Source of the DNA: Pseudovirgaria hyperparasitica
Lineage: Eukaryota
Assembly (NCBI GenBank): GCA_010093815.1
Contig: ML996584.1
DNA: 64,000 bases
Reading direction: 5' to 3' (one strand)
Below, in pieces: positions 1-60,656 of this stretch. The notes beneath the pieces are model-generated. The model was not told the DNA's origin and did no database searches. It saw nothing but the letters and a program-made list of their open reading frames with translations. Made by a program: the position numbers and the translations under genes. Position 1 is the stretch's first letter. Each line of letters opens with the position of its first letter.

Positions 1-831
1 GGAAGGCGGTGGCACGCGCAAAGATCCACAGAAGGCTGTGCAATGGTACAAGCGTGCCGCTGCTCTGGGTGATGTTGCTGCCATGTACAAAGTCGGTATG
101 GTACTTATGAAAGGCTTGCTTGGCCAGCAAAAGAATATGGGCGAAGCTGTCAACTGGCTCAAACGTGCCGCAGAACGTGCAGACGCGGAGAACCCCCATG
201 CGCTGCACGAGCTTGGTCTCCTGTATGAAGGTGTCTCGACTAACGCGTCTGGTCCGGTCATACGTGACGAGAATCATGCAGGTCAACTGTTTCGGCAGGC
301 TGCAGAATTAGGATACAAGTTCTCGCAGTTCAGACTTGGCCAAGCTTATGAATATGGCCAGCTTGGTCTACCAATTGACTCTCGAAACAGTATTGCTTGG
401 TATACGCGCGCTGCGGCGCAAGGCGAACATCAGAGCGAACTGGCCTTGAGTGGCTGGTATTTAACTGGCAGTGCTGGTTTGATCGAACAGAGTGATACGG
501 AGGCATATCTGTGGGCTCGAAAGGCGAGTACGGCAGAAGTTCCGTTACCCAAAGCAATGTTTGCCATGGGTTACTTCACTGAAGTGGGCATTGGATGTCC
601 AAGAAGTCTAGAGGAGGCGAAGAAATGGTATGGGAGAGCTGCAGGTATGTCGTGCGAAACCCCCCGGCGTTGCGGGATTTTATATTGACACTTTGCCTAG
701 CACATAAATTTCCGAAAGCACAAGAACGTCTCGAGGAATTGAAGAAGGGTGGCATGAAGGCACAAAAGAGTCGTGAGAGATTGAGTCGTACCGACAGAAA
801 GCAGCAAGACGAGAATTGTGTTGTCATGTAA
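1..831 (+). CDS. CHS4: Chitin synthase activator (Chs4/Skt5 family, Sel1-like repeats), 3' part only
   Basis: Sel1-type repeats (AVQWYKRAAALGD, AVNWLKRAAE, SIAWYTRAAAQG, AKKWYGRAA); intron 645-700 (GTATGT...TAG); ends in CaaX box CVVM*. 5' end is outside the window. Confidence 0.85.
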
Positions 832-1532
832 GGGACCATGTCCTACTTCCTGCTACCTTTGTATTATTGCCGACTGCGTCTGAAATGCCCTGTATTGAAG
901 ACCATCTCTCCGATTTGCGTGGAAGGCGTTTCATCTCGAAGCTCTCGCGATCATTTGAAAAGGCGTTATCCGGGTGTACAGCTGTATGTTTAGGACGTGA
1001 AAGGACCGAAGATATGTAGCAGGCTATGTCTACGTTTGGGGCGGAGTTTGGCGCATACAAGCCACCAGAAATGAATATATGGAGGTATGCACCGCAATGT
1101 ATGAGGCTGATTACGGGGTATATAACCTGCATCGGACTCCGTTCGTGCACTGACAGGGGCGAGTGCCAAGAGCCTGCCTGCACGTGTCAACAAACGAAGA
1201 CGCATCATGGATGCAACACGATGAGTTCGAGTTCATGTGGAATGTCAACACTTTCTTGCTACTGCCGACAGGAGTGAAGTCAAATGAAGCATATGATAAT
1301 CCTCGAAGCACTGAGATTGGATGAGCAGGTACCAAATTGTCCGTACATGGAGACTCTGACTTACAACCGCATAGCATCGAGCATCAAGTCGGCCACAGAC
1401 AACAAACAATCTGCAGCTCTCAAACTTCCTCCGCCGGATGATTATGAACCCGTGCACTTTCAAATCTGCAATATGCAGATCCCCTACACATGTGCTTCCA
1501 TTGACGCCCTCTCCTGAAGCAATCTTCCCATG

Positions 1533-1540
1533 TATATAAT
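1533..1540 (+). promoter_or_regulatory. Putative TATA box of the repeat-precursor gene
   Basis: TATATAAT ~170 nt upstream of ATG 1704, followed by a C/T/A-rich leader and CACAATG start context. Confidence 0.5.
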
Positions 1541-1703: not shown

Positions 1704-3064
1704 ATGCGTGCTACTGCAGTCCTCATCGCCATCTTCGCGAGCTCCGCGCTTGCAGCTCCTCTCAACGCTGTAAGCTCCCCTAACGATCCCCCACCTTTTC
1801 ACAATTCTCCACTGCCTTTTACAGGTGGTCCATCTTGCCGGAATATGCAGCTAACTCAATACTACAGGCCCGCCAAGCTGGAGAGGCTGATGGCTACTCC
1901 TATGGCTACGGCCACGACGTGAAGAGCGGCCATGGCGAGCATAAGCGTCAAGGTCCCGGAGGCGAAGACTATGGCTACGGCTATGGTATGGAGAGCAAGA
2001 GCCAGGGCGGCCACAAGAAGCGCCAGGGCCCTGGTGGTGAGGATTACGGCTACGGATATGGACACGAGGAAAGCAAGGGTCACGCCGGCCACGAGAAGCG
2101 TCAGGGCCCCGGTGGTGAGGATTATGGCTACGGATATGGCCACGAGGAGAGCAAGAGCCATGCCGGTCACCCAAAGCGTCAGGGCCCCGGTGGTGAGGAT
2201 TACGGCTACGGATATGGCCATGAGGAGAGCAAGGGCCACGGTGGCCACGAGAAGCGCCAGGGACCTGGTGGTGAGGATTACGGCTACGGATATGGACACG
2301 AGGAAAGCAAGGGTCACGCCGGCCACGAGAAGCGCCAGGGCCCCGGTGGTGAGGATTATGGGTACGGCTACGGCCATGAGGGCAAGAGCCAGGGCGGCCA
2401 CGAGAAACGCCAGGGCCCCGGTGGCGAAGACTATGGTTACGGATACGGCCATGAGGGCAAGAGTGAGGGTGGCCACTCCAAGCGCCAGGGACCCGGTGGT
2501 GAAGACTACGGTTACGGATACGGCATGGAAAGCAAGAGCCACAGTGGTCACGAGAAGCGTCAGGGTCCCGGTGGTGAGGATTACGGCTATGGATATGGCA
2601 TGGAGGGTAAAAGCCAAGGCGGTCACCCGAAGCGCCAGGAGTCTGATGAGGCCAACCCTCTAGCCGCACTCGCACCAAAGAAAGAAGAAGGTGGCGAGGA
2701 GAAGAAGGAGCAGGGCGAGAAATCCGAGCCCCAATCCAACCCACTCGCAGCACTAGCACCTCAAGAGGAGAAGAAAGGTGGCGAGGAGAAGAAAGAGCAG
2801 GGCGAGCAATCATCCAACCCTCTCGCAGCACTAGCACCTCAAGAGGAGAAAAAGGGCGGCGAAGAGAAGAAGGAGCAAGGTGGCGAGAAGAAGGAAGAGG
2901 AGAGCGAGGAAGAGAACCCTCTCGGCCGCCGCCTTGAGAACCCAATCGACCCCCTTGCGAAGCCTGTCGCCGACAAGATGCAGGGCAAGGCTGAGGAGAT
3001 GAACAAGGCCCAAGAGGCTGGAAAGAGCCCCCTCGGGCCTCTCGTCGAGAACAAGGGTAACTAG
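1704..3064 (+). CDS. Secreted Kex2-processed repeat protein (KEP), peptide precursor
   Basis: Exon 1 (1704-1769) is signal peptide MRATAVLIAIFASSALAAPLNA; intron 1770-1867 (GTAAGC...CTAAC...CAG); exon 2 has one variant unit plus nine QGPGGEDYGYGYG(H/M)E...GH-x-KR units, then an acidic E/K-rich tail with NPLAALAP repeats. Confidence 0.9.
1949..2635 (+). repeat. Coding tandem repeat, nine units of 75-78 bp
   Basis: Units of 25-26 codons delimited by KR codons (mostly AAG CGY); differences in the core are synonymous. Confidence 0.9.
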
Positions 3065-3885: not shown

Positions 3886-6800
3886 TTACCACGGAAGCCA
3901 GTTCTTGACCGACTTGACGTAGACCCAAAGATACACTGACAGATAATTCGATACGCAGAACAATGCAAAGATGCCCAGATTTCTCCAAGCATTCGAAACG
4001 GAAATTTGCCTGGTGACGAGATACTGTATCACATATGAGTCTAGAGTCCACTCCCTGGAAGATAAAGACGACTTACATCCTCGCCCTTCGAGTACTGACA
4101 ATACCCGCAATCTTGAGTAGCGTTCGGATTGACTAGATATCCCGTCGTGCCATCCAACCATGCCTGTGCGTAGGTTGCGCATGTATCTCCAGGAGGCGCT
4201 TGAAAGCGGATGAGTTCAGAGTCCATGCAGTGTATGGTCAGATCGCCCAGGATCATTGCAACCACGCCGGAGATCCAATACATAAATGGACCGACATAGT
4301 ATAGTGTGTAAGCCCATACAGCAGGCATAAGAGATTGTGGCTGCAGAACACCATTGAAAAATTCGCCAACTATGATAATGAAGGGCATGATGTTCGCGGC
4401 CATGACTGCGTCGGCACTAAAGCAGAGTCAGTCGCGACACAAAGATGAAGCATAAAGGTAGGGTTGTAAGATGAAGCATACCTGAGTGCTGCAATCCACT
4501 GACCCCAGGAAGTGCTGAAAAGGTGAAACATCATCATCATAAGGAACGTATACCCAGCCGGAGTCCCAAGAGGTAGACCAACGAGGAAATAAAAAAGTAC
4601 GTAGAAGATGAGGCCACCAGCGAACGCCCAGGGAATTTCAGAAATGATCTGTGCGGAGGTGAAAGCTACCCAGCCATATATGCGGCTAGGATACTCTCGG
4701 CCAAGCCAGATATTGCGATTCTCGACAAACATCATCGAAGACGCGTTGATAAACTCCGGGACAATCATGAGGACTAGGAAACAGGAGAATATCCGATATT
4801 GGATACTCGCGACGCTGTTGTTCAGCTGTAGGAATGCCAAACCATTCAGGACGGAGTGGAAGAAGGAGCAGTAAAGTCGGGAGTAGATGTAATCCGGCGT
4901 GCGCCAGTACTGTGTCATGGTTCGTTTTGTTAATTCAACGATCTGCCTTGCCATAGACGATGCATATGTAACTTGTGTTCTGCGTCTCGTCTCCTTTGAT
5001 GAAGCCTCAGTGCCATCAGATGCTCCAGAGGTTGTCAATTCGTCAACCTTGCGAAGGACTGCTTCAGCTTCTGCCGATTCGCTCCAGACCTTGCTTAAAT
5101 CCAGTTCTTTTGTAGTCTTGCCAGATGCAACTTCTATCAAGAAATCTGCGACGTTTTTACCTGGTTCGCACACGATACCGTGCGCGGAAAAGTACTCAAT
5201 CACGGTTCGACCATGCGAGCCAATGTCGCCAAAATAGTACGGTCGTCCTCCGCGAGCCAGTGCAAGCACACGATCGAAAAGCTCGAATTGCTGTTGATCA
5301 GCTTGGTGGATGGTACAAATGATGGTCTGGCCTGCTTCTGCGAGTCTTCTCAGAAGCTTGACTATGTTAAGAGCACCTTGACTATCCAGACCGCTGGTCG
5401 GTTCGTCAAGGAAAAGGGCAATCGCTGGCTTTGAACAAAGCTCGACGCCAATAGTGGTCCGCTTACGTTGCTCAAGACTGACTGACTGAATGAGCGCATG
5501 TTGCAGTTCGGCCAGGCCAAGGATCTCGAGGACTTGATCAACGTAAACGAGCTTGTCGGCTTTTGATACATCGGCATTTTGCCTGAGTATAGCTGAGAAC
5601 TCGAACGCTTCTCGGATGGTTGCTGTTTCGACGTGAATGTCAGCCTGTTGACAGAAACCTAAGTCTCGAACGATTGAGGTGTTGACGTCCTGACTGCCAA
5701 TTTTGATGGCACCAGTCACATGTCCTGGTGCCTGTTGCGTTAGGACATTCATGACTATGGCTTTGTTAGTTCCTCTTCTGTGGAAGTCTGATGGCTTGGG
5801 TAATACTAACGAGTACTCTTTCCAGCCCCGGACACGCCTACCAAAGCTGTCAAAGAGCCCGGCTCACAAAATCCAGAGACATCATCTAAAAGCTGTTTGC
5901 TAGAACCAGCATGTTGGACGGTATAGTTCAAATTACGCCATGAGAATGCGGTCTTTGGCGCCGAGATGGTTCCCTGCGATATTTGATGTGGCGTTGTCTC
6001 ATTCGGGAGCTCTAGGGGCACAGTCTTCTCAGAGCAGTCTCCGTCGCTTTCCTCATCTTTCAGCACAGTCTTCTGTCGATCACAGGGTTTGTGTGAAAAC
6101 TCAAGGGAGCTTCCAGCTGATGCCCACAAAACCTTCTCGGCCAGTAGTATGTTAATTGTAACACAACCAATTAAGAACAGAATCAGGATACCAAAGTTCC
6201 TACCAACGTTGCTATAATAGAATCCGAAGGTTCCTTTGAGATATTCGTCACCATTGAGTGTCAGTTGCCCAGTACCTATTCCTTCGTAAGCACAGCTCTG
6301 ATATGCTACATTATCATAGCCCGGTCCGGAAGGTATCACGGATCCTTGTTCGCAGGGGAATTGACGTCCATGAAATTCCATTGCCATGATGATCTCGAAA
6401 GCGTACAGAGCCGGTGTCAGATACTGGCATCAAACGTCAGCGACTTTTCTGGAAGAGAGAAGAAGCACAAAATCCGGACGGGTGGAAATGGCGGAGTGGA
6501 AAACGGATCAGACTCACAGCAAGCCAGCCTACCCAGGGGACATCAGAAATGAGTTGGTCGACACCACGAACATAGCCTCCAAATATCATGGACACCAAAA
6601 GGTACAATCCGCTGTATCGTAAGGCAATCTCTAAGCGGGGAGAAGCGGCAGCGAAAAGCCGATAGCTGGCTGTGAACGCCATAGCACTCAACACAACCGC
6701 CAGATCGAATGTGAAAAAATTGCCTGACTGAAATCACTTATCAGCATTGCCCTTTTGTAGAGTATGCAACGTTAGTCTGCAATGACACTCTAGCTTGTAG

Positions 6801-8650
6801 GAACTGCTGGAAGTGCCGCCAGACTAATGTGTTTTATGGGATGGATCTCGTACCTCACGCTTCATACCTCCTAGAAAATATGCCACAAGCGAATAAAGTG
6901 TTGACAAGAAGACTGTAACCGGAATATCCATGATAGTTTTGGCCATGACTACGGCTCCAGGTCTCACCATGGCGAATCTTCTCTGTCGATTGACGACAAA
7001 TCTATCAGAGAAAGCACTTTCAAGCTCAGCGAGCTGAAACCAAGCGACCAATACTGCAGAATAGAAGCTGAATCCACCTCGGGAGTAAACACCTGCAGTA
7101 TCGTTTGGCATTTTGTAGAACATTGATCCAATGAGAAACGCAGATACGAAAATACACGTGAATCTTGTAATGAATGTAGCCATTTGTCCTTTCATCTGCC
7201 ATATCTGTCGTTGTAAACATAGCTGTACTTGGCGCGCGAATGACGTGTTGTAAGACGAGCCCGAAGAGACGAATCGAGACTTTCTTTCTTGTGCGCGTTG
7301 CTGAATGATCGAACCATTCGTAATTGACTCGGATGCACTTCTTTCGGAGGCCGGCCGAAGTCTATCTGTCCCACTCAATTGCTCGGCTTCGTAGAGACGA
7401 ATTTCCGTCTCTATATCTTTAAAGGTCTGGCTCTGCCGAAAAGCGTACTCAAGATTTTTGGAACCCCGCACCGCACAGGATTCGCAACCTGACCGAATGT
7501 TATCTCTGCTAGATGTGGCTACACTGGTAAGAAAACTGCTCATTGTTTGCCTTTGCTGTCGTTCGTAGCCGAGAGAGTTAAAGTAAGATTCGGCATCACG
7601 TGCTGGTCCCTGATAAAGCATTCTACCGTCTTCAATAAGCATGACTTTGTCAACAAGGTCATACATAGCGTCCGATGCCTGGTATATCGAAACAACCATT
7701 GCCCTCTCACAGGTATCAGTCATGATTCGGAGTGACCTCATATAGTCAAGTGCAGACGAGGAGTCTAGACCCCGTGTTGTTCCATCCCAGGCATTGACCG
7801 ATGATCCGGAGGCCATTGACTCGAGAATCGAAACTCTCTTCCGTTCGCCACCAGAAATTCCTCGAATGAAGTCGTCGCCGACAAGTGTGTCCATAGCGTG
7901 AGACATCCCAAAGATGCGCCCGAATTCTTCAAGAAATCGCGGCACTTCATGAAGTAGCTTTCTAGGTGTCTTATTCATGAGAGCAAAGTCGAGCGTCTGG
8001 CGGACGGTCAAGGTCGGTAAATGGGTGTCATCTTCAGGTATGTAGGCGACGGATCCTCGGAAATGTTTCATGACATTTGAGGGTGCCATGCCGGAGTAGT
8101 CCAGGTGGCCTCTTACTCCTAGGAATGAAGCGTGGTCATTTGCAATGGTACGTAGGAAGGTGCTACAGCCCGATCCTGGGTTCCCCAGCACGAGCATCAT
8201 CTCACCATTTCGAACGATTCCCGTAAAGTCACGAATCAGGGCCTGACCGTCTTCGATGCTCGTAGGAAAAAGAAGCGGCTGGATGGATCCCTCGTAGATA
8301 TCTCGAAGAGTGAAAGTCCTCCATAGAGCCTCCTTTAGTGTCTTAGCTTTGACCGGACCTCTAGCTCGACCGTATGTGGTGAGTGATTTGAAGCAAACGC
8401 TCAAAGGAGGAGGACGGTGGTTTGATTTGACATAGGCTTCGAAATCAGTGAAAGCGGGATCTATGCCCTGAGATTTTGACGACCTGTCAGTGACAGATCG
8501 ATACAATTCTGCTGCAGCCTCCTCAACTTGATCGTTGATCTGCACATGAAGCTGATTGTCATATTGTAGACGTCGAAGGTCTGCATTGTCGTAATCTGGA
8601 AAGTTGTTGTAAGCAGATACACGCCTAAGTGGAGCAACGTATGATGGCAT
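3886..8650 (-). CDS. Full-size PDR-type (ABCG) ABC transporter
   Basis: NBD1 Walker A GNPGSGCST and signature ISGGERKRVS; NBD2 GVSGAGKST, EQRKRTTIGVEL, LFLDEPTSGLDS; two TMDs; extracellular CGYCQY motif; several introns joining ORFs 6824-8698, 6437-6694, 5806-6387, 4370-5752, 4041-4403, 3886-4182. Confidence 0.93.
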
Positions 8651-9220
8651 GATGAAGTGAATTAATACCCATTCACAGGGAATTTTTGGAACGTGCAATC
8701 AGACTATGAAAAACGTCAGGACGTACGTACCTACACAATTATATGTATAGGTCAGTCAATCGCTTCAGAACGGAAATTTTTTAGATGCTACTTGACTACC
8801 GCATCGAGAAGCATACCGAGATCGTATTGCAAGGGTGGTAAGACGCCACTCTCGCAAACATCGCGGGCCATGCTTTGACAGTCTAAGTGAAAGTCGTGAT
8901 GCGTCATACTAAGTGGAGCAATAGAGTCGAACGTTACCAGATACGGGTGACAAAGTGCAGCTACCCACATCCGGAAAGGACCACACTCTACTTAGTCAGC
9001 CCTACTCTAACCCCGGCACAGGTACGTTCTCGGGGACGACAGGTCCAACTTCAGCATCAGCACAACGTCACTTCCAGCAACTTGTTTGGTTGAGTCGCTA
9101 TCGCTCAATTGTAGGTAGCGTCCCAGCGCCGAATCACGGTCACAGTCTATTGCATGCCTCCTCGGAGCGTCATGTCCTGTACTTGATAACGACTTAACGA
9201 GATCCCAGAGCTATGAGGAT

Positions 9221-10839
9221 ATGAGAACATGCTATACCTGTCGACGTCGTAGACTTATCTGCGATGGGGGTTCGCCACATTGCAAGAAATGTGAATTCAA
9301 CGGCGTTAAATGTCTTGGCTATATTAAGCCCTTGACTTGGATAGGCGGCGCGGCTACAAAAGGGCACCTAAAGCAATTATCGAACTCAACAGCAGGCCTG
9401 GCAGTCTCTGGTGTTTGCAAGAATAACCTACCTGCATCCCAAGCTATACCTTCACCACCCTTGGCCTTGACAGAACCAATTTTCCAAGATTTGAGTCCGG
9501 AGTCACGGTTTCTCGTAGACTATTGTAAGTCTACTGCTATAAAAGTCACTTCACATATGTTCTGACAAGTATGCTAGTCGAAAAACGAATTTGCCATGTC
9601 CTAGTACTCGTCGACACAGAGAGGAACCCATACAGAAGCCTTCTTTCCTTTATTGGCCCATCTAGGGGTGTTTTACATGCTGTGAGTGCTATTTCTGCAT
9701 GTCACATGGTGCACAGCATTACAGGCGTGCCTGTTCTCTCTATGCCTCAGGACGGGACCGCGAAGCTCTCAGAAGTCTCGCAGGGCTCGTCGTCAATAAG
9801 TCATTCCACTTTGGCAGTATCAGGTCTGCTCAAAAGTCTCTTCCAGTCTAAGCATAGAGCCCTGAGATGCTTGTACGATGCACTTTCGAATCCTCAGGAA
9901 GGACACGAATGCTCCACGTTGACTACGGCCATATTGTTGGTTGCCTTGGACATCTGGGAGAGCGGCACTCGATCGTGGAACGTTCATCTAGAGGGAGCGA
10001 AAAAGCTACTAGAGAGCTGGGCCGAGAGCGGCCAACTGGAGTCAGTGAATCTAAGGATGCTTACTGGCTTGATAACGTGGGTAGCTCCATCAGATATATA
10101 CTCCGATAATGCTAATCATGGCAGGTTGGAGACCTGCGGCTCAACATTGATGCTACCAGGGGGGCTCAAGACACCATTACGATCGCTTCTGGCGGATATA
10201 CCAATTCGTGATGCTCCTGATACCTCAATTGTTGGATGTCCTTATGAAATTGCATCTGCAATAGAAATAGTTACTTGCCAACGTCAGATGTATACATCAG
10301 CGCGTAGTGATTCGGATCAAGCAACGCAGCCCAAAGACGCAGATGTCAAGGTCCTTTTGCAGACTCTCCAGGATCTGGAAAAGTTCGATATCGATCACTG
10401 GGGTCACGAAATGGTGCAGGCAAGCTCCCATCATTTATCACTGTCGTTGAGTGATCTCATGCATGTTGGAAGGATATGGAAGCTTGCCGCCATCATCTAC
10501 GCCCAGCGTATCTACTCCAACGCAACAATGCAATTCGCAAGCCCTCAGTCGCTCGTGAACGACATCATCGCAGAGTATATCAGTGTTCAACATCTTGACG
10601 ACGCAACTAAAATACTCATGTGGCCTGCATTCATTGCTGGTGCTGAGAGCACTACAACACGTCAGAGACAATACGTTCTCCATATACTCGATCGCATCTG
10701 GCAAATCACACTTAGTGCCAATGCAAAGAATGCTGCTTTGACTCTTCAACAGTACTGGAAACAACGAGAATCTCAAACAGATGCCTGGAATTGGACCAAC
10801 GAAACCTCATTGCTGAATGACTACTGGCTATTCTTTTGA
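9221..10839 (+). CDS. Zn(II)2Cys6 transcription factor with fungal-specific C-terminal TF domain
   Basis: CYTCRRRRLICDGGSPHCKKC-x6-C cluster; intron near 9524-9578; C-terminal motifs NPYR, WxxHLEGA, WPAFIAGAE. Confidence 0.88.
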
Positions 10840-19999: not shown

Positions 20000-20820
20000 C
20001 TACCGGGTTTCGGGTTTCGGTTTAGGCGCCTACCAAGATTGGGAGACGGTAACTTGGATCTTGTAAAGTGCAGTAGCGAATCATATCGCACCATCCTCTA
20101 CTGAAGAGGTAGTACTGTGCACATCGTTGAAGTTCTACCTGGAAACGGGTTTCGCTTTACGGTATTTTGGGGTCTGCGTAAAGCTCAGTAGCGAATCATA
20201 TCATAGGGAACCCCTCTCAAAGAGGTAGTACTATGTATATATCGTTGAAGTTCTATCCTAAAAACGGGTTTTCAATTTAGGTGCTCACTAGGATTGGAAA
20301 ACGGTATTTGGATCACTATAAAAAGCAGTAGCGAATCATATCATAGGAACCTCTCCTAAAGAGGTAGTACTGTATATATCGTTGAAGTTATACCTAGAAA
20401 CGACTTTTAGTTTCAGCGTGTAGTCAGACTGGAAACAGGATTCTGTTCTGCTATGCATAGAGTGTAGTAGCGATTCGTATAGTAGCATTCTTTCGAAAGA
20501 GGCAATAATACATACATCGTTGAAGTCCCAACTAGAAACGGGGTTTTTTGGTTTAACTTTCCACCGAGACTGGGAAACGGGTTCTGTGCTGCTGTGAACA
20601 GAGCATAGTAGCGAATTACATGGTATTATTCCTACCAAAGAGGTAATAACACATATATCGTTGGTCTTCTGGCTCAAAAACGGGTTTCGGTTTTCGATAC
20701 TTCCTTGTAGGACTTGCGAATAAGGTTTAGATCTGCGCAGTAATTACCTGTGTAGCATATTGACCTATATCACAACGATACGCTCTTCCTCGTTACACTT
20801 ACTTCCAGAAAACGGATTCT
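20000..20820. repeat. Degenerate tandem array, 5-6 units of ~140 bp
   Basis: Anchor (C/T)AGTAGCGA at 20071, 20186, 20326, 20465, 20606 (spacings 115, 140, 139, 141), each followed by AAGAGG(T/C)A, ATCGTTG and AAACG blocks. Confidence 0.85.
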
Positions 20821-32236: not shown

Positions 32237-33004
32237 TCAATGCTCTTCCTCCTTACACGATGCAATGAGAGCAGTGCTTGCCGCAGCAGCAACACTCACC
32301 ACAACCACACTGATGAGACTGCCAAGAATGATACCACCGAAACCACCCATAGCAGCCGACTGAAGGAGAGAAAACAAGCTTCCTGCGGGAACGTCACCCA
32401 TAGAGGCCTGCACAGCCGCCGCAATAGAACCTTTCGACTGAGTCAGTACATATAACCCTCCAAGTATGCGAATCACACCCCAGCAGCAGGCCCGACAGGC
32501 GTAAAACCCAGGATTCCAAGGAGAGGCATGAAGAACAGTCCCGGCGCCGCGATGATGACGCCGCCAATCACACAAAGTGCAATCTCATGCGGGTGCTCCT
32601 TGACGAACTCGAACGTGGCTTCCGGGAGGTTATTCCAGTCGAAGTTGAGCATATACTCCTCTGCTTCTTCCTTGCTTTTCCACGCGTCATCGCCGAACTG
32701 CTGAAGTGCTGGCATGGTCTCGTTCTGGTACGTGTTCTGGAGGTCCTGCGCTCGCTTGCGGAGCTCTTGGAATGCACTGTCTCCCGCTTCACTGAGGGCT
32801 TGCATGGTTCCGGTGGCGCTGTCGTTAATGTCTTGCATGCCTTTCTCCCCGGCTTTCGCCATCTCTTCACCTGTTGCAAATCAGTCTCGTCGTTCATAGC
32901 TTTCGCCGTGCAATGCTCGTACCAGCTCTTGTTGCATGGCCTGCGACGGCTTCGGCGGCATGGCCGGTATCTGCGATTGCTTTGTCAAACCAGCCAAAAT
33001 CCAT
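32237..33004 (-). CDS. IFI6/IFI27 (ISG12)-like small membrane protein, copy A
   Basis: Three exons; spliced C-terminus LGILGFTPVGPAAG/SIAAAVQASMGDVPAGSLFSLLQSAAMGG matches the ISG12 motif. Confidence 0.75.
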
Positions 33005-33497: not shown

Positions 33498-34123
33498 CTA
33501 TTCTTCATCTGGTTCCAAAGTGTCAACACCCCTTTGTCCCTCGCTTATCGCCATGTTGCGGTTTGGATTTATAGCAGCCTTGATTAGCTTTGCTGCTTCG
33601 ATGGCGACAAAAGACACAGCTCCAGTTGTAAGCACACCTCCTACGATTACTGCACCATACCCAGCCATAGCGGCCGACTGAAGTATTGCAAATAGTGAGC
33701 CACCAGCCACAGTTCCGAGAGAAGCCTGCCAGGCAGCTGCGAGTGAGCCTTGACCCAAGTCAGTCAATGTAAAATAAAACGTGCAAAGCGTGGTGACTTA
33801 CCAGCCGCCGGACCCACAGCTGTGAAGCCCATTAGACTGAGTAGTGGTCCGAAGATGAGTGCTGGTTGGAAGATCATAATGCCAGTCGAGACTCCGCCGA
33901 CGATGTAGAATATAGTCTTGAACGGATGTGCCTTGACGTAACGCCATGTACTATGAGGCAGGCGCCTGAAGTTGAAGTCAAGTAGTTTCTTCTTGGCAAC
34001 GAACAGATCTTGCTGCAGGCTGTCTCCCAGCTGGTTCACAAGCGGAACGACGCCGTATTTGTACCAACCGTTCAGTTTGGTGGCCGTGCTAGCCACGGAG
34101 GAGAGAAAGTCGGCAAAGGGCAT
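33498..34123 (-). CDS. IFI6/IFI27 (ISG12)-like small membrane protein, copy B
   Basis: Two exons; LSLMGFTAVGPAAG/SLAAAWQASLGTVAGGSLFAILQSAAMAGYG. Confidence 0.78.
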
Positions 34124-34896
34124 GTTGAGGCTTTGAGAGATGTTATAGGTGCGAAAAGTAAGGCAGTGGAAGACTATATATCAGAGCCGTTAATCCTGTG
34201 ATTTTGAGTCGAAGCATTTGTCTTGGATACTGAGAAGTGAATCGAGTTAGTAACTTCGATATGTGCGAACACTCGTCATGTTTGATTGAATGTGTGGAGA
34301 TAGGTCCGCGAATCGGCCATCGCAAGTGTAAAGTGATAAGTTGTGAAATTTGCATACTGGAAGTAGCCGGGTCGGCGCTGGAGAAAAGATATTGTGGTGG
34401 GAAGTGAACGCTGAGTGCTCAAGCACGACCCCCAACCGAGAGACCTAAACACAGCCTTACGGAAAGCAGTTAGACGACAGACTAAGCGGTTATAATATAA
34501 ATATGAAGCTCAACGTCATCAGAAGGCTAGATTGGTTGTCTTTTACGATATCAAGAAATAGAAAGAGCTTTGAACAGCAATATAAGGAGAGAGAGAGAAA
34601 AGAGAGGAGAGAAGTGAGGCTCTACAGCCCAATCGCTAGTCTCGATTAGGCTAGCCCAGTCAGTACGTCTCCACTTCGTGTTCACAAGGTTAACTATGGG
34701 GGCATGGAGCAAAATAGATTACAGTATCAATCCACCAAGTAACAGGAATACCGACTTCAAAGCTCTTCATGGAAAATATCACCGTGATATAGAGTCATCA
34801 GGACCCACTGCTATGTCATAGGTATCTTACAACGTGCTTATATTCTCCTGTTCATGTATGGCGTGACCACTAACATAGTATTGAAATCATATGTCA

Positions 34897-36307: not shown

Positions 36308-37756
36308 TCACAGTCCAACAGTCCTTAAAGTATGTGACAGTGAGTTCCCGATCGGCTGCAAGTTCGGGAGCATGGCCGCGACGAATCGATCTGGGAATCT
36401 GCTACTGCCATGAATCAACAATGGCAGCACAGCTATTCCCCACATGAAGTATGTCAAGCCGATCGCCATGTTGATGCGAATAGCGATGATGATGGATCTG
36501 AGACGCGCAGCAATCCAGTTGCGAATGGGTCGATTCTTCTTTGCTGCTTCAGCGGCTGCGAGCGCTTCAGAAATCTTCAGCGCAACCTTGTTGTTGATCT
36601 TTTGCCAAGTAGTATTGAGCGCGATCGATCTCGCTGTCTGCGACATTTGTCTTCTGAGCTCAGATGACTGGATAAGTCTCTGTGTCTTCGCAACGAAGTT
36701 CCTAACGTCGTCTGGTCGAATGAGATGGCCAGATTTCTCATCAACTACAATCTCAGACGGCCCTCCTTGATCCCGTGCGACCACTGGCAAGCCACTCGCC
36801 ATCGCTTCCAAAACAACCAGACCAAAAGTTTCGGTGATGGAACAATGCAGGAACAAATCAGCTGAAGCGTAGACGCACGCCAATGCTGCACCCTTACGGA
36901 ACCCTGTGAATACAACCCTGTGCTCCACACTCTTGAACAATTTTTGCACATCTTCTTCCACTGCGGGATTCTGGTTGCCACCTGTAATGACCATCTTGAA
37001 ATGACTTCCTGCAGCATCCAACCGCTGGACGACCTCAGCCAAAAACCCGAAGCCTTTCTCTGGAGCTATTCTCCCAACACATAGCAAAATGATCTCGCCA
37101 TGAGGAGCAATCGTTTTGCGAAAGTTCATGTCTCTCGCTTCTGGTCGGAATAAAGCCGTATCTACGCCTCTTCCTAAGTGGAAGGTCTTACTCATCGGCG
37201 CGCCTGCTTTCTCGAGATATTCGCGGACCATTCCTGACGGATAAAAGATGGTATGAACGGCACTATGGCTGAAAAGGAAGCCTTGTACCAGTGCTAGTAA
37301 CCATACGGCATACTGATCCATCGGCTTGGGAAATATGATCTCACTGTATGCGGAAAGGTCGGTTTGAAAGTTCAGCATCACAGGCGGTGGTGAACCCATT
37401 TGTCGAATCTGTAGAAGAAGCTGGAAGCCCACGGATGCAGGACTCGCCAGATATATCAGATCTGGGTGAAACGACTTGCTATATATAGTGTCGAGGCGGA
37501 GAGGATATGCGACTGTCAAATCTGGATTGTATGGTAGAGGGTATCCATCAAGTCGAACTTCCGGATCGTTTCTCGCATTCGTCACTGTTGTTGGTCCCGC
37601 GAACTTGGGCGCCACAACAGCTACCTGCGCTCCATTGTCGCGGAGATATTGGATCAGACTGCCTGTAGTCCTACTGACACCGTTGATTGGGCCAAGTGAC
37701 TCAGTCGCCAGCAGAATCTTTCGGCCCTTGAGGTCTTGAGGAAAGTTCTGGTCCAT
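36308..37756 (-). CDS. GT4 glycosyltransferase, SQD2/Agt/MgtA-like, with C-terminal hydrophobic helix
   Basis: Intronless 482 aa; KILLATESLGPINGVSRT, RGVDTALF, VGRIAPEKG, EX7E motif ETFGLVVLEAMASGLPVV. Confidence 0.88.
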   Translation of the reverse strand: MDQNFPQDLKGRKILLATESLGPINGVSRTTGSLIQYLRDNGAQVAVVAPKFAGPTTVTNARNDPEVRLDGYPLPYNPDLTVAYPLRLDTIYSKSFHPDLIYLASPASVGFQLLLQIRQMGSPPPVMLNFQTDLSAYSEIIFPKPMDQYAVWLLALVQGFLFSHSAVHTIFYPSGMVREYLEKAGAPMSKTFHLGRGVDTALFRPEARDMNFRKTIAPHGEIILLCVGRIAPEKGFGFLAEVVQRLDAAGSHFKMVITGGNQNPAVEEDVQKLFKSVEHRVVFTGFRKGAALACVYASADLFLHCSITETFGLVVLEAMASGLPVVARDQGGPSEIVVDEKSGHLIRPDDVRNFVAKTQRLIQSSELRRQMSQTARSIALNTTWQKINNKVALKISEALAAAEAAKKNRPIRNWIAARLRSIIIAIRINMAIGLTYFMWGIAVLPLLIHGSSRFPDRFVAAMLPNLQPIGNSLSHTLRTVGL

Positions 37757-38472
37757 CTTCTCAGTAGTTGAAGGCTTTCAAAATTGCGGCTCAAGCGATG
37801 GCACGAACGTTATGTCACTATAATGTCTGCGGTGCGTTGTATTGACCAGGACCAATGTTTGAAGCAAATTCCACGTAAGAAGAACCTGCGACGTGGAGGA
37901 ACTTGAAATTCCGAAGTCGCCCTTCCCATGATGTAGTCGCTGCAGAATTATCCTCATCATGCGGGGTATCTTTGTGAGGTGGGATGCTCAGTGTCTAGCT
38001 CATGACAGAGGGTTGAGATAGGAAAGTTGATGTTTGTCCCACGAGACGGCGGATTCACTTCTGATTGGCCGGTAGCAGGCATCACTTGAACCACAGATTC
38101 AGGGTCCACGGCAACATCAGGGCCTGGCATCTCGCAACGTGCGACGGTTGGACGTCAACACTCGAGCAGAATATAATATTGATACGATGACTCCACGATA
38201 AAGAACCGCGTCGCACGAATGGACTGTTTGCTGCCACCACGAGATCTCCACCGCGTGCTTATTGCCACTCTTTATTTTCGATGCAAGCTTGTCCGGGGAG
38301 GATGGCCACTACTATGTACCATTCACTCGACACATGACTTGGCTTGTAATAATGGCAAACGCGAGATTGCAAAGCGGGCCTCGGCCGTTGCTGTCGCACT
38401 GCCTTCATCTCTTGTCCCTATATGTGCGTGACCATACCTCCACTTTGACTGCGACAGCACACGACTTCCAGC

Positions 38473-40530
38473 ATGAATATGGTTCAATTCAGCTCAAGTG
38501 CCTCAGATGAGAGTACATTTGATCTATCTATGCGGTCAACACCTCCGGAAAGAAGCCTGTTGAGTGGCACTGCGCAATCAGATGCCACCATAGAGACTCG
38601 TTTTACAAGCCTTTCGGATCTTATCTCCCTCGAGGAGTCGTCCTCACCACAAGACAGGCAGCGAATACTGCCAGATATCCTCAATCCTGCCAGCGCCGCG
38701 GGAATTCCTGTGAGGAATGTTTGTTTCGTGGGAGCTGGGTATGTAGGTATGGACCACATTTCCTCTCAATCTCATCGATCCTATCTCACGTGTGCCTTGT
38801 AAACTACCGTCTGACCGACCTAGGGGTTCCAACTGCTGCAGTCATTGCTTTGAAAAATCCATCATTGCGCGTGACAGTCATAGACCGCGACGAGAGGCGC
38901 ATACGAAGGTGGAATTCTACACATTTACCACTTAGCGAGCCAGGCTTGAATGAGCTCGTTCGAATCACAAGAGATGGCTGTAAGTTTTCTTGGTCCCACA
39001 AGGAGAAGCCGAAGGCGGTCACAGCATCCTTCGAACAGGACGTTGAAGAACAGGCTATAAGGACCCCCAACCTAAATTTTTCCACGGAAACCGCGAAATG
39101 GATTGCGACTGCAGATATGATATTTATCTGTGTTAACACTGGAACAAAGACCTCGGGTGTGGGAGCCGGTTCTGCCACCGACATGACTGCATTCGAAGGC
39201 GTAGTACGAGAAATTGCAGCCAACTCAAAGACAGGAGCCATACTGGTCGAGAAGAGTACAGTGCCATGCAGGACTGCAAAGTTTGTCCAAGACATTGTCA
39301 GTTTGAGAACTCAAGCAGGCAGCGAATCTGATACTGACCATAAAATAGCTCGAGAATCTCAGGCCACGGGCGAGGATGCAAGTGCTCTCCAACCCTGAAT
39401 TCCTTGCGGAGGGCACGGCTGTCGCAAATCTTCTTCATCCAGATCGAGTAATCATCGGGTCTGCCCATACTGTTGAAGGCCATCGAGCTGCTGCCGCCTT
39501 GGCCAAACTATACACATCATTTGTTGATCCATCGCGTATCCTGGGTACTCATGTATGGTCGTCTGAGCTTGCAAAGTTAGCTGCAAACGCCATGCTAGCA
39601 CAGCGCATTTCCAGCATCAATTCTATTAGTGCAATATGCGAACAGACTGGTGCCGACGTCCACGAAGTAGCAAAAGCGATGGGCATGGATCCACGGATCG
39701 GAAGTCAGTTCCTCAAAGCAGGTCTAGGCTTTGGCGGAAGCTGTTTCAGGAAAGATATCGGTAGTCTAGTCTATCTGGCTCGTAGTCTGCATCTGGACGA
39801 TATTGCTGACTACTGGGAGAGTGTGACGAAGATCAACATGCTCCAGCGCACACGTTTCTCTAAGATGGTTGTTCAGCGTCTCAACGGCACGCTCGTGGGT
39901 AAGAAAATTACACTCTTAGGATTTGCTTTCAAGAAGAACACCGACGATACTCGTGAGAGTTTAGCCGTCGACATCATCAGCAAACTTCTCGAAGAACGCC
40001 CCGCCGAAATCGCAGTATTCGACCCTATATGTCTCCCGGAGAACATACAGCGCGAGATCAATACGCTTGGCCCTCAGTACAATAACACAGACAAGGTCAA
40101 GATCTATACCGATCCCTATCAGGCATCTATGTCCGCATCCGCAATCTTGATTATCACTGATTGGGACTTTTTCAAGAATTCACCTTCAAAGCGCCCTGCT
40201 TCGTGTTCATCGTCTCCCACGACAAAGCCAGTCGATCAACTCGGTCTGAACCTCTCCCCTGAGCAGTTTTTTCCTCAGCCCTCGTGCCCGGATGACTGCC
40301 CGGACTGCAAGATCTCTTATCAGGGGTACGGAGTCGGTTCGGACGACAGGATCGAGTGGGCAAGGATAAGCTACCACATGAAAAGGCCGCGACTGCTCTT
40401 CGATGGTAGAGACGTAGTCGACCCAGCAGAGATGGGGGCTTTGGGCGTCAGGGTCATCGGCTTGGGGAGGACTGAAACTGGTTATGGTGGTGGAATGAAT
40501 ATGGGCATGAGTACTGGTTTTGGGTACTAA
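38473..40530 (+). CDS. UGD1: UDP-glucose 6-dehydrogenase
   Basis: VCFVGAGYVG/GVPTAAV, VEKSTVP, LSNPEFLAEG, SELAKLAANAMLAQRISSINS, catalytic GFGGSCFRKD, FKKNTDDTRES; two introns. Confidence 0.95.
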
Positions 40531-52394: not shown

Positions 52395-53856
52395 CTATAC
52401 ATTGATTAACTTACCCGATGAGCCTGCGCTAAGGTTAAGCCGAGCCACGACGACTCTAAGGTTATACAGACACCTTGGGAGATTGGTTCCCTCCACAGGG
52501 GTTAAATCCCGAAAGTGGTCACCTTTAGTGGACAAGGCACACTCAACGGCATTCTGATAGATCTCCTCGAGCGTTATGTTATACTTCGTATATAATTTGT
52601 CTGATCTTTCTGGCGCAATGGGTTTGAAATGAACGGCGCCCTCGGCGTTACATACTTCATGTATTTCCCCGATTCTGAGACAATGCTGTATGACGATGTC
52701 AGTAAAAGGCATGAGTATACACGTTGCAACAAACATTATAGTACTCCGGCCATCCAGGTCTAGGATGTTTGGTGGTAACATTCATCCAGCGCCCTTCTGC
52801 ATAATGATGGCAGATTGCCTCATCTGTCACGGCAGGTTCTTCCCCCTTTTCATTAAGCTTCCAATGAGTTTCTACAAAGATACCCATACCGTATTGGCTC
52901 AAAGCCTGTCCAACTATGGCCTTTTGCTGTAGACTTTCAGTATTGCAAACCTCTTGTCGATGCGAAGAACATACCAAGTTTCTACCAAAGATTTTTACCG
53001 TTTCCTCAGCTCGGACACTTGTCGTTGCCTTATCTTGAATCCAGTTACTGCTCGAGAATATCATTGCTATACGCTGCGCATCATGATTCCAATTGCCTTC
53101 CTCTGGCAGAAGCTTGTCCAGGGGGGTCTGCGGCACGTCTATGCCCTTAAATATGGCAGACATAGCTGACCTTATGTCTTGGTTCTGCTCTTGCCATATT
53201 TGACGCAGGTAATGTTTTATCTCGGCTGCTGGGAATTCCTTGGAAGTCTTCTCGTTGAGCATGTCCAAGCTCCTCGCCGTCCCAAAAGCAGCCATCGCTA
53301 GGGAAAAGATTGTGTCTGCGGGAAAGTCCAGTTTAACCGCATAGATGAAAAACAGCAAGTTGTTCACGATAGACAAGGCGAGCGGTTGCTTGTACTCTTT
53401 AGGCTTGAGATCTTGCATGATAGAGTCAAGTTCGAGACCCTCCTGGCCGAACAGTGTATCTATGAGCGTCCCAACCAGCGCATGAAAAGAATACATGCTA
53501 GCCGCCGCCATTCTTATGAAGTAAACCTCAGGAGGGGTGAAGTCCGTACAACGTAGGCTTGGGAAAGGACATACGTCCTGGGCAGGATATTGATCGCAAT
53601 GTAAGCTCGATGATCCTTGGGAACCTCCAGCGGTTGTCGCAAGGTCCATATTGTGCAGCCAGTCTACCGGCCCATTCTTGCGCAAGAAAGCCTCCAGGAA
53701 GGCGGATGCATTTGATTTCGTCCAAATGTCTGGGTCGTTTTCAGAGATAGCACATTTTTCGGTTGCGTTAGTGGACGGCCACTGCTCTGCTCGAGTGACG
53801 TGCGCATCGATTGCGATTGAGGATATGAGAAACGTTAACAGAATATTACAAAGCAT
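52395..53856 (-). CDS. Predicted secreted Cys-containing protein of unknown function
   Basis: Signal-like MLCNILLTFLISSIAIDA; spaced Cys (LHC...VCPFPSLRC); probable in-frame intron near 52924-52972 and a second intron joining to ORF 52395-52781. Confidence 0.65.
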
Positions 53857-56674
53857 CCCGAAGAGCAGCCAAAAGCGATGACATAGGCATTGGCTAGTGA
53901 TGTCCACGAGTTACTGAAAAGAGGGAGAGCCAGATGTTAACATCGGGTCTAGATCACGTATATATACGCATGCTTGTGTGTATTGTCACATTGATATGCA
54001 GCGTTCCCCATGTTCGCTCGGGCATGTGATGGGTGCATCATCAACGGCTTACGCTATGAGGAAATATGGCCTCATCCCTGACGTTTCATGGAAGCCCCCA
54101 CTATCGTAGTCTGTAATTAGAAGCACAGGCACAAGCATGCACCTCCCCACGCCATCGATCATGCTAATAGAACTGACTCTTGACTGAGAATGGATGATTC
54201 GTGACATATACACTTGCAGCCACCCCTTTAAGTCATAGGTCTTATCCTCCTTCCTATCATCCTTATTTTATGTCTACTACCAGTCGAGATGATGGCCAGT
54301 TTATAAGCTACATTGTCAATTGAAACCTAGTATAACATGGTTCATATATTGTACTGCTGTAAACAAATATTGATGCGTTTACGAACTATAAAGACATTCA
54401 TAATACTGTGCTGTAAGATGCAACCGTCCGGTCCTAGCTGTCAGCCTTACAATGCTTAGCCCATTATGCCATGCGGGTAATATACCGGCAAGGCTGAGTC
54501 TGTTTGAGCGCTAGATGTAACCCTCTCTCAGATTGGTGACTTGCGTTCTCTAAACTGAGCACCGAGTACGACATTGTCGTACTGAGTGGCGTCAGAGCCA
54601 TGGATGTGCCTACAGGACACATACAACACCGCGCTGAGAACGGCATCGTCATAACAAATACTTTCAAACCAAGTGTGCGGTCTTTCCAATGCATACAACT
54701 TTCTGCCGTACTATTACCCTATCTCTCATAACCAAGATGGACAAGATTCCATCGTCTTCTCCGCCCATCTCCCATTCAGAGTTTACAAGCTTTGCCAAGA
54801 GTGTGCATTACCATACCCACCCGAATGACATTCCGGCCCCATGGGGTTGCATCTACAAGAGCGTTCGTTGCACGACAGCTTATCTTTTCCCCTGCAAGCC
54901 ACGAATCATATCGACGACATATCACGCCTAAGGGCTGGGCTATGGTATGCGAATATGGATGTCACTCTTCTGTGGCATCGCTGAGAACTCGACTCAAGTC
55001 AAGCTTGGTTTCAATGGTTTCAATGGACTCGAGTCAGCAGCTCGACGTTGTTTCCTGCTCCTATTTCGCCACTATCGCCTCTGCGCTTCGCTGTGCCCAC
55101 GGCAGATCGATTTGGGGCGTATGAGCCCATATCTACTCATGCGTTCATGGTTTGTGGTCTGTCAAACGCCTGTATGCTCACGGTTGTGAAGGTGCTCGTT
55201 GCTCGCAGGTCGACGCGACGGTTGGCGGGCCACCGACACATATCACTACCAGCGTGTGCTTTTATGTGGTATGTCAAATAATACTTGGTTCTACGTCTCC
55301 ACGGTCCCACGAGGAAGCGCGGGAGCTATCTTATCAGCTAATGTACTATGTATCCCTATATCTGAACTTAGCTTGTTTCATACACTTCGTGTCTATTTTC
55401 TAACTCTATATCTAGTTCTGTTACTAGCTTTTGTATTTTAAGCTTATTATTAGAGTTAGGCCCTGGATTGGAAACAGATAATTTAAAGATGCCTAGCCCG
55501 GCTGTTCACAATAATCACGAGCGAAAGCTTAGGGAGTTGCTGTTGTGCTCTTGTGCCACACACGCGCACGTACCACAAGCTACACTGACAACGCAACGAC
55601 ACATGATTGGTCAGGAGCCTAATGCTTCCCATTTGTTAAGCTCGTTCAGGCGTAGCTTTACTCTTGGCAGGGGTAACATGAAACTCTGCTGCCACGTCGT
55701 TCTTCCAGACTTCCACGTCCAGGTCCGCGTCGACGGCCAGGTCCACGGACACACGTTATTTCAAACGACTCCATTGTCATTAGCCACATCTTCGATGCCC
55801 TTTCATAGCAGCCTGAGGTATCTATCCTCACTTGTGCCCTTTTCGCTGCCTTTGTTCCGAGCTCTTGGAGCACCTCACACGTCTTCTAATCTTAGGCATG
55901 GCACGCACCTGCACCTCATGCCTGCAATGACTATCCAGGAAATCCCGTAGCCTAGCGCGGCGATCGCGCAGTGTCGCGAGCGTATTGGATATGTATGAAT
56001 TGCATCATACTCCATGATCACAGCACTTTTGGCATTGAGCGATTGATAGGCCGGGTATCTGATGCTCACGTCTACAAGGGCAAGAGTCATGGGCACGCCG
56101 ATAGCTGTAATTACCTCTTGTGTTTGACAGAGGTCCGCCCAAGTCCTTCAAATGGGGTGTGGATCGTGTTATCTAGGAATCAGACGATGACGACCGGGTT
56201 CCTGGGTGTCGCAGTAGAAACAACGTGGACCCACGTGAGTCAGGTATCACAGCAGCAGTCGCGTGGTCATGGGCCTCTTATGAATTGATTGTTTGATGTG
56301 TTCCTGGTAATGTTTCAGGCAGCCCAGTACGTTGTGGCTCTATCACTATCGACGTCATATGATCAGCTCCTTCGATTGTATCGCAATGCACGTCTCACGA
56401 TATTCCTGGGTGTCTCGCATCCCTCAGACTCGTGAATGACGCACGGTGCATTTCATCGCAATGATCTTGCGAATCACGTCATCATCGAAGCCTTAGGCTA
56501 CAATGTGTCTTCCGAGTGGCCTTTCGGGTTTGGCACCACCATTAGTTGCTCAATCGTTCCTAACGAGACCTATAAGCTTCGATATATCAAGAGCCCATCG
56601 GTAACAAGCTTTGTCATTTGCCTTTCCGATTCCGTCCATGTCGGGCAGCGCTCTCTCTCGTGAGTACTACGTCT

Positions 56675-58435: not shown

Positions 58436-59059
58436 TAAAGGAACGCGTGCAGAGAAGAAGCGAGAGAGCAGGATGGCTGAGGGCCCGAATGAGCGTGTCC
58501 GTAATGAACGTGCTGATTAATGCGCCTCCGTTGGTTGCCTAAATTATATTTTTCTTAGTGCTCATCCAGCATACCCAGACGCTCATAACATGTATATGGG
58601 TATTCCTATATGCTACAAAATTATCATGTAGCCCTATTCCATCGAGAGTAAAGAGTTTATTGAAAGAAAGTAAGATGGTCTATATGAAAAACATAGAGTA
58701 TTACTACCGAGGAAACATGTCCGTCTTCTCTTTCTTAGCCTCTACAATAGACTTGATAAAGAACAAAATACTTATGAGCTAGATATGACTAACTATCTCA
58801 TCTTAGATAGTATAGACAATATACTGTATCAAGGTTTCATTCAGAGATGTAAGTAGAATTAGTGGTAGAGTTGTGCCAAGAGCATAAACGGGTGCCAAGA
58901 GTGACAGGATCTAGCACGTGTCCGTATCGCCATCGCCCCCGAATTCACGATCACTTGGGACTGGCATCAATCTGAACACGCCGATTCTCTCACAGTCATC
59001 GGAGTCTATGTATCCATGTACAAATCCGTGAAGTTGCATGGTCACAGATAGATAGAGGC

Positions 59060-60377: not shown

Positions 60378-60656
60378 AGCGGTGAGCACATGTCACGCAA
60401 ACACGAACACCAATCTTGCTCCCGCCAACTCGAACACAGCGTTTATTGATCAACGGTGACCTGATGTCGTGGTTTGGTGAAACAAGAAACAAGAGATAGT
60501 CTTGGCATTATCAGCAGATCTCAAACGATGCATGAAACGTTGCTGTGAGATCCGCTATGGCTCGAGAAAGCTACGTTCAGGACCGCTAAGGCATAAAAAC
60601 GGAGACCGACGTAACTCTAAACCTATCATTAATCTAAGCTTCTACTGCGTCTACCA

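What the first reader, a model, noticed from the sequence alone, without database searches (positions are those of the whole stretch)
1704..2635. Secreted Kex2 polyprotein predicted to release ~10 Gln-started Gly/Tyr/His peptides
Seen: signal peptide, one variant unit (QAGEADGYSYGYG...KR) and nine units with invariant QGPGGEDYGYGYG, a variable His/Glu/Lys tail and terminal KR. Base changes in the core are synonymous, so the peptide sequence looks selected. Known: Kex2 cuts after KR; N-terminal Gln can cyclise to pyroglutamate; dikaritin RiPP precursors such as ustiloxin UstA carry an ED-Y core in KR-delimited repeats; Ustilago Rep1 is a KEP giving structural surface peptides. Inference: either a new RiPP with a three-Tyr core (YGYGY), or self-assembling, cross-linkable or metal-binding surface peptides (GPGG and GYG motifs recall elastomeric and low-complexity proteins). 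I do not recognise this repeat as a characterised peptide.
Basis: partly seen in the sequence, partly recalled or inferred. Interest (0 to 1): 0.8.

Follow-up and report, generated by a model that had tools for sequence, protein, structure and literature searches.

The report
Orphan fungal Kex2-cut repeat peptide precursor
A mould gene encodes one secreted protein that is probably chopped into ten near-identical glycine/tyrosine/histidine-rich peptides; such precursors are common in fungi, this sequence has no known relative, and it most likely makes plain surface peptides rather than a new cyclic toxin.

Summary
The gene is a single-copy, two-exon ascomycete gene (1704-3064, 420 aa); its 98-nt intron is spliced out in contigs of two public runs. 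It has a signal peptide, one variant unit and nine KR-ended units. The 13-residue core is identical in 9 of 9 units while all 13 third codon positions vary (pN 0, pS 0.63).

It is a Kex2-processed repeat protein (KEP). The RiPP reading is weak: the nearest UstYa/DUF3328 gene is about 396 kb away and the contig has no tyrosinase, whereas the same genome keeps three other KR-repeat precursors beside UstYa genes. No homologue was found, but a third of catalogued KEPs are also stand-alone, and close relatives seem unsampled.

Best reading: linear pyroglutamyl peptides that self-associate at the cell surface through the GYGYG core, with His/Met tails as a pH or metal switch (about 0.4; all inferred). 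The AlphaFold solenoid failed its control. Verdict: new member of a known kind, interest 0.35.

The parts
1533..1538 (+). TATA-like box upstream of the gene
   Evidence: consensus match only
1704..1769 (+). Exon 1: start codon and predicted signal peptide (22 codons; cleavage probably after residue 17)
   Evidence: cleavage site inferred
1770..1867 (+). Intron, 98 nt, GT..AG, phase 0, with branch-point-like CTAAC
   Evidence: predicted; joint 1769>1868 in one contig of each of runs X1 and X2
1868..1948 (+). Start of exon 2: Ala-Arg, then the variant unit (Gln-started, GYSYGYG core, 3 His), ending KR
1949..2635 (+). Nine 75/78-nt units: invariant 13-aa core, His/Met-Glu-Lys-Gly-His tail of 10-11 aa, KR. 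Predicted products 22-24 aa, pI 4.65-5.26, 3 Tyr each
2636..3064 (+). C-terminal 142-aa acidic segment (pI 4.7) with three NPLAALAP..EEKK repeats and four further [NDS]P[LI] motifs, 7 KK, 1 RR; stop codon
3065..3401 (+). Probable 3' UTR (contig cover ends at 3401 in X1 and 3365 in X2)
   Evidence: weak, one sample at most
1..830 (+). Upstream neighbour: 3' end of a Sel1-repeat gene ending CVVM (Chs4/Skt5-like label recalled); not a RiPP enzyme
4041..8650 (-). Downstream neighbour: ABC-2/ABC_tran transporter (exons from about 4041 to 8650), divergent from a Zn2Cys6 transcription factor at 9119-10839; link to the KEP untested

Best explanation
A stand-alone KEP gene. SHOWN: the gene is intact, spliced, single-copy and under purifying selection on core, tail and KR. 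INFERRED from known KEP processing (about 0.75): the precursor enters the ER, Kex2 cuts at ten KR sites, Kex1 trims the basic residues, and N-terminal Gln cyclises, giving ten linear, acidic 22-24-mers plus a 142-aa acidic fragment that may be cut further at KK/RR. INFERRED, weaker (about 0.5 given processing): the peptides act in bulk at the cell surface or in extracellular matrix. The identical GYGYG cores pair with each other, which would explain why no substitution is tolerated. The His/Met-rich tails neutralise the charge near pH 5 or bind Cu/Zn, and Tyr may be oxidatively cross-linked by general secreted oxidases rather than by a dedicated cyclase.
For: Splicing joint at the predicted intron. 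Core pN 0 / pS 0.63, KR pN 0, tail pN/pS 0.34. Kex2-type gene present. No UstYa within about 396 kb, 0 of 19 tyrosinase matches on this contig, and no double HxxHC in the window or 50 kb upstream. No Trp or Cys and no XA/XP run, unlike alpha-pheromone precursors. 21 of 30 Tyr sit in [GS]Y[GS]. Net charge goes from -2 to -4 at pH 7 to about 0 at pH 5. The 10-small-plus-1-large layout matches Ustilago Rep1, whose peptides form surface fibrils (PMC4617103, passages). His/Tyr/Gly 20-25-mers can phase-separate with His as the pH switch (PMC6884462, passages).
Against: No peptide, localisation or assembly data exist. The units are strongly hydrophilic (GRAVY -1.6 to -2.0), unlike amphipathic Rep1 peptides. 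The GHGxY motif that drives squid-beak coacervation is absent. Strict invariance fits a receptor ligand or enzyme substrate equally well. The prime side (Q-G-P-G) lacks the acidic residues over-represented at cleaved Kex2 sites (PMC2515848, passages). Six KEP knockouts in Coprinopsis had no phenotype in culture, and the authors favoured biotic interaction (PMC9769878). The His/Met count varies between units (His 1-3).
Confidence: 0.4

Rival explanations
1. Linear, diffusible signal, effector or antimicrobial peptide: the invariant pyroglutamyl 13-mer is the recognised part and the tail is a soluble carrier or follower.
For: Strict core invariance with a looser tail; polyprotein amplification is how alpha-pheromones are made; Vogt et al. 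favour biotic roles for linear KEP peptides (PMC9769878); Ustilago Rsp1 has 11 hydrophilic Kex2-separated repeats and a virulence phenotype in a double mutant (PMC4617103).
Against: No Ste13 dipeptide run, Trp or Cys. The peptides are acidic and non-amphipathic, unlike membrane-active peptides (general knowledge). The variant unit changes the core but keeps the Tyr spacing.
Confidence: 0.22
2. Dikaritin-like RiPP: the ED-YGYGY core is cyclised by an unlinked UstYa and/or tyrosinase, and the tail is a follower.
For: ED precedes the core Tyr as in UstA; the asperipin-2a core has three aromatic-rich positions (FYYTGY) and needs one UstY only (PMC6514808). GigA has 27-aa core-plus-follower units, so length is no obstacle, and gigB lay on separate scaffolds in two Aspergillus assemblies (PMC10540207). 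9 of 12 UstYa loci here showed no repeat precursor within about 10 kb in my simple scan, so unassigned enzymes exist.
Against: Nearest UstYa about 396 kb away; no tyrosinase on the contig. Neighbours are mostly housekeeping. 3 of 12 UstYa loci have their own KR-repeat precursor, one with a tyrosinase too. DUF3328 genes lie on average 3.09 genes from their KEP (PMC7329392). No YxIx core.
Confidence: 0.12
3. The protein is secreted uncut or partly cut and acts as one hydrophilic low-complexity polymer (adhesive, hydrophilin or matrix protein).
For: Some predicted Kex2 substrates remain uncut in vitro (PMC2515848); prime-side residues are not the favoured acidic ones; the C-terminal 142 aa has no KR.
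Against: KR is kept in 10 of 10 units with pN 0 and is followed by Gln in 10 of 10, the pattern of processed KEPs. The only structural hint for an intact fold, an AlphaFold solenoid, failed its control.
Confidence: 0.14
4. Soluble metal-scavenging or metal-buffering peptides (Zn/Cu), recaptured or left outside the cell.
For: 9% His in the repeat region; His or Met, both copper ligands (general knowledge), alternate at the first tail position (7 His, 3 Met); H at -2 in 9 of 10 units.
Against: The most conserved part has no His; no metal transporter among the 26 neighbouring ORFs scanned apart from a NIPA Mg transporter 10 kb away; 0 matches to two recalled Zn/Cu-response motifs upstream (weak).
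Confidence: 0.1

Closest known systems
KEPs without DUF3328, stand-alone type (Le Marquer 2019, PMC6339444; Umemura 2020, PMC7329392)
   Same: Signal peptide, tandem repeats, KR between repeats, Tyr with Asp nearby, no homologue, no cyclase gene nearby.
   Different: Specific Gly/Tyr core with His/Met tail, and a second repeat type at the C-terminus. Whether a catalogued type matches could not be checked, as the supplements held give accessions, not sequences.
Ustilago maydis Rep1 repellent precursor
   Same: Ten short Kex2 products plus one long C-terminal product (PMC4617103).
   Different: Rep1 peptides are 35-53 aa and amphipathic; these are 22-24 aa, hydrophilic and acidic. No sequence match found.
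Ustilago maydis Rsp1
   Same: About ten hydrophilic short repeats separated by putative Kex2 sites.
   Different: No sequence relationship shown; Rsp1's own function is unknown.
Dikaritin precursors (UstA, AprA, PhomA, GigA)
   Same: Signal peptide, KR-delimited repeats, ED before a Tyr-containing core.
   Different: No linked DUF3328, tyrosinase or methyltransferase; no YxIx core; the long non-core C-terminal segment.
Squid-beak histidine-rich proteins HBP-1/2 (analogy only)
   Same: Gly/His/Tyr-rich low-complexity sequence, about 23-mer scale, His-dependent charge switch.
   Different: Animal, not Kex2-released; depends on GHGxY repeats, which are absent here; these peptides are acidic.

Membership tests
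KEP (Kex2-processed repeat protein) | N-terminal signal peptide | tested here: met
   Hydropathy peak 3.3 over residues 5-12, small residues before the likely cut; no SignalP available
KEP (Kex2-processed repeat protein) | Tandem repeats separated by dibasic Kex2 sites | tested here: met
   10 of 10 units end in KR
KEP (Kex2-processed repeat protein) | Kex2-type protease in the genome | tested here: met
   One P_proprotein match on C17 in an ORF that reads as a kexin; Kex1 not searched
KEP (Kex2-processed repeat protein) | No Kex2-delimited piece over 100 aa (Umemura's pipeline filter) | tested here: inconclusive
   142-aa piece if only KR counts; under 100 aa if KK/RR count
KEP (Kex2-processed repeat protein) | Actual cleavage in vivo | not testable with these tools
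   Needs peptidomics
Dikaritin RiPP | DUF3328/UstYa gene near the precursor (class-defining per PMC12048977) | tested here: not met
   Nearest about 396 kb; no double HxxHC in window or 50 kb upstream (misses intron-split motifs; 1.5% of upstream DNA reads N)
Dikaritin RiPP | Linked tyrosinase (ustiloxin/phomopsin subtype) | tested here: not met
   0 of 19 matches on C20
Dikaritin RiPP | Tyr-containing core flanked by ED and KR | tested here: met
   ED-Y in 9 of 9 core units; UstA description
Dikaritin RiPP | Tyr-ether macrocyclic product | not testable with these tools
   Needs chemistry
Ascomycete alpha-pheromone precursor | XA/XP Ste13 dipeptide runs after KR; Trp-containing core | tested here: not met
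   QG follows KR in 9 of 9 core units; no Trp in the protein (features)
Rep1-type repellent | Amphipathic 35-53 aa repeats | tested here: not met
   GRAVY -1.6 to -2.0; 22-24 aa
Rep1-type repellent | Amyloid-like fibrils on hyphae | not testable with these tools
   AlphaFold uninformative
Squid-beak HBP-type coacervating protein | Two or more GHGxY motifs | tested here: not met
   None in the translation (motif)

The most novel reading that the evidence does not exclude
The fungus has independently evolved a peptide-based hardening or glue system like those of animal cuticles and beaks: a Kex2 polyprotein releases Gly/Tyr/His peptides that condense at acid pH or with Cu/Zn, stack through the GYGYG core and are cured by Tyr oxidation into a wall or adhesive layer, with the acidic C-terminal repeats keeping the precursor soluble until cleavage.
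Probability: 0.15. Interest if true: 0.72.

Novelty: new member of a known kind. Interest (0 to 1): 0.35.

Why it matters
Most KEPs lack a cyclase neighbour and have no known function, which is an open question. This one gives short, synthesisable peptides with exact masses and a strongly selected core, so assembly, metal binding and signalling can be tested cheaply. If it forms a cross-linked surface matrix it would be a second structural KEP type beside Rep1, with different chemistry. As it stands it is one orphan among thousands, with no relatives to compare.

Tried and rejected
Homologue searches found nothing usable. Word-based searches of exon 2, the first five units and the C-terminal region each scored 8000 candidates with 0 hits. 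Exhaustive phmmer gave 3 hits, all unrelated low-complexity proteins on reading. Pfam 0 families, PDB sequences 0, Atlas no usable hit and one sub-threshold 0.79 hit. No paralogue in the own genome.

Limits of those blanks: the protein itself was never returned, although 1 of 2 neighbours tested by exact sequence is in the collection, as a one-member cluster, and 0 of 4 alternative ORFs are. So the gene is unannotated or withheld, and close relatives seem unsampled.

The metagenome pattern gave 2 hits, both single matches in bacterial-type genes, rejected as chance.

The AlphaFold beta-solenoid (mean pLDDT 53) was rejected: a non-coding frame of the same DNA gave a more confident all-beta repeat model (pLDDT 80), the bias is published (PMC11795689, abstract), and Foldseek found 0 of 63 matches at E<=0.001.

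No RNA holder is listed as such. Contig depths were not used, and parts without cover were not interpreted.

KEP catalogue supplements gave 0 hits for five motifs, but they list accessions rather than sequences, so this is uninformative. Literature searches for the motif gave 1 unrelated paper and only English-word hits among the 15 of 50 listed; two searches showed no matching peptide in their listings.

Glutaminyl cyclase: 0 matches for the bacterial/plant-type family; 14 M28 matches were not assigned, so this is unresolved. A recalled pheromone-end pattern gave 3 matches against 4 in the control, inconclusive. The promoter motif look showed nothing beyond TATA. AA9 gave 13 matches, which does not fix the lifestyle.

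Full report
1. The gene. The window is fungal (Pezizomycotina by the look of its genes; my reading, not a call result) and lies on contig C20 of a 35.4-Mb genome. The ATG at 1704 opens a 22-codon exon with a hydrophobic stretch. A 98-nt GT..AG intron follows (1770-1867), and exon 2 runs to a stop at 3062-3064, giving 420 aa. One contig in each of two public runs joins 1769 to 1868, exactly the predicted splice. The runs' kind is not on record and they are at most one sample; I infer they are RNA-derived because both joints seen are GT..AG. Overlapping contig pieces match the repeat array with 0-2 differing letters each, so the array is real.

2. The repeats. Exon 2 begins with Ala-Arg, then a variant unit and nine units of 25-26 aa, all ending KR. 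The 13-aa core is the same in 9 of 9 units; all 13 third codon positions vary and none of the other 26 do. Over 36 non-independent pairs the core has pS 0.63 and pN 0.00, KR has pN 0, and the tail has pN/pS 0.34. The array is therefore old and selected at the peptide level, tail included. This is not unusual for such precursors: another one in this genome gives pS 0.75, pN 0.02 over 11 units. Predicted products after Kex2/Kex1 are 22-24 aa with 3 Tyr, 1-3 His and pI 4.65-5.26.

3. Relatives. None were found in three word-based searches, an exhaustive profile search (3 unrelated low-complexity hits), Pfam, PDB or the Atlas, metagenome DNA (2 chance hits) or the own genome. These blanks are weak evidence of uniqueness. 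The protein itself never came back, and a neighbouring glycosyltransferase that is in the collection forms a one-member cluster, so close species seem unsampled.

4. Is it a RiPP? UstA cores are flanked by ED and KR (PMC6514808), so the resemblance is real. But DUF3328/UstYa is the class-defining enzyme (PMC12048977) and lies on average 3.09 genes from its precursor (PMC7329392). Here 27 UstYa matches fall at 12 loci, the nearest about 396 kb away, and 0 of 19 tyrosinase matches are on this contig. Window neighbours include Sel1-repeat, ABC transporter, Zn2Cys6 factor, NIPA transporter, V-ATPase E and AMP-binding genes. The 50 kb upstream reads as tRNA synthetase, PRPP synthetase, helicase, sugar transporter and chitin synthase (labels recalled, not scanned). 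As an internal control, 3 of 12 UstYa loci carry their own KR-repeat precursor within about 10 kb, and the C19 one has a tyrosinase too. Against my reading, 9 of 12 loci showed no precursor in that simple scan, which misses intron-split or short repeats, so action in trans is not excluded. Unit length is no argument either, since GigA has 27-aa units (PMC10540207). I put the RiPP reading at 0.12.

5. How it most likely works. A kexin gene is present. KR followed by Gln in 10 of 10 cases fits processed KEPs, whose Gln-started peptides were found pyroglutamated, spontaneously in Pichia and probably enzymatically in Coprinopsis (PMC9769878). The prime side lacks the acidic residues favoured at cleaved Kex2 sites (PMC2515848), so cleavage is likely, not certain. 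It is not an alpha-pheromone precursor by its features: no XA/XP run, no Trp or Cys. The layout of ten small products and one large one matches Rep1, but the chemistry does not, as these units are hydrophilic. The composition (31% Gly, 12% Tyr, 9% His; 21 of 30 Tyr in [GS]Y[GS]; charge near zero at pH 5) points to self-association by Tyr contacts with a His switch, as shown for squid-beak peptides, though their GHGxY motif is absent (PMC6884462). That [GS]Y[GS] motifs promote such assembly is recalled knowledge. Stacking of identical copies would explain a core that tolerates no substitution, but so would a receptor. I commit to the surface/matrix reading at 0.4, with signal or effector 0.22, uncut polymer 0.14, RiPP 0.12 and metal scavenger 0.10. 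Every step after splicing is inference.

6. A false lead. AlphaFold built a two-strand-per-repeat solenoid at mean pLDDT 53. A non-coding frame of the same DNA gave a more confident all-beta model (pLDDT 80), the bias is documented (PMC11795689), and Foldseek found nothing significant. The model carries no weight.

7. Novelty. KEPs are a named class: 7878 in 1345 of 1461 genomes, 2560 of them stand-alone and 78% without DUF3328 (PMC7329392). This is a new member with an unusual composition. I found no description of the peptide in searches, which cover open-access text only. The catalogues' sequence lists were not among the supplements I could read, so a match to a catalogued type is not excluded.

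8. What I saw of each paper. PMC7329392: parts 1-5 of 8 and a supplement search. PMC6339444: part 1 of 7, passages and a supplement search. PMC9769878, PMC12048977, PMC6514808, PMC10540207, PMC4617103, PMC2515848 and PMC6884462: passages only. PMC11795689: abstract and outline. All others: search listings only.

9. Verdict. Observation confirmed and extended; interpretation partly supported; new member of a known kind; interest 0.35. The most novel reading not excluded, a fungal peptide-based hardening or glue system, has probability about 0.15 and would deserve about 0.7.

Noticed in passing
G000:C19:548321-555667 (L048/L049; precursor repeats at 552262-552735): A complete-looking dikaritin-type cluster outside the window: two UstYa genes, a tyrosinase, and a signal-peptide precursor with 11 or more copies of a 14-aa unit with a VVYPDY core ending KR. 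A better RiPP candidate than the finding itself.
   Followed up: partly
G000:C11:510278-510643 (L038) and G000:C29:14714-15427 (L034): Two more KR/RR-delimited repeat precursors beside UstYa genes: a 16-aa PPLFDGG unit with no Tyr (C11), and a 40-aa unit beside three UstYa genes (C29).
   Followed up: partly
window 1329-1374: A 46-nt GT..AG intron is spliced out in both runs in the non-coding stretch between the Sel1 gene's stop (830) and the KEP start; it may lie in a long 3' UTR or read-through. One contig spans both genes, which does not show a single transcript.
   Followed up: partly
window 32473-32984 (-) and 33764-34180 (-): Two tandem, paralogous-looking small genes, each with a hydrophobic stretch ending GFTxVGPAAG; no Pfam family on the exons scanned. 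The motif recalls ISG12/IFI27-like proteins (from memory, untested).
   Followed up: no
window 36308-40530 and 56675-62582: A divergent glycosyltransferase family 4 / UDP-glucose dehydrogenase pair, and further on a DXD glycosyltransferase, an unassigned membrane protein and an aromatic amino acid lyase; possibly polysaccharide or surface-glycan genes.
   Followed up: no
window 20186-20443: A 137-bp tandem duplication (1.9 copies, 80% matches) in an AT-richer intergenic stretch.
   Followed up: no
window 52699-53910 (-): A 403-aa open frame with a signal-peptide-like stretch and several cysteines, no Pfam family.
   Followed up: no
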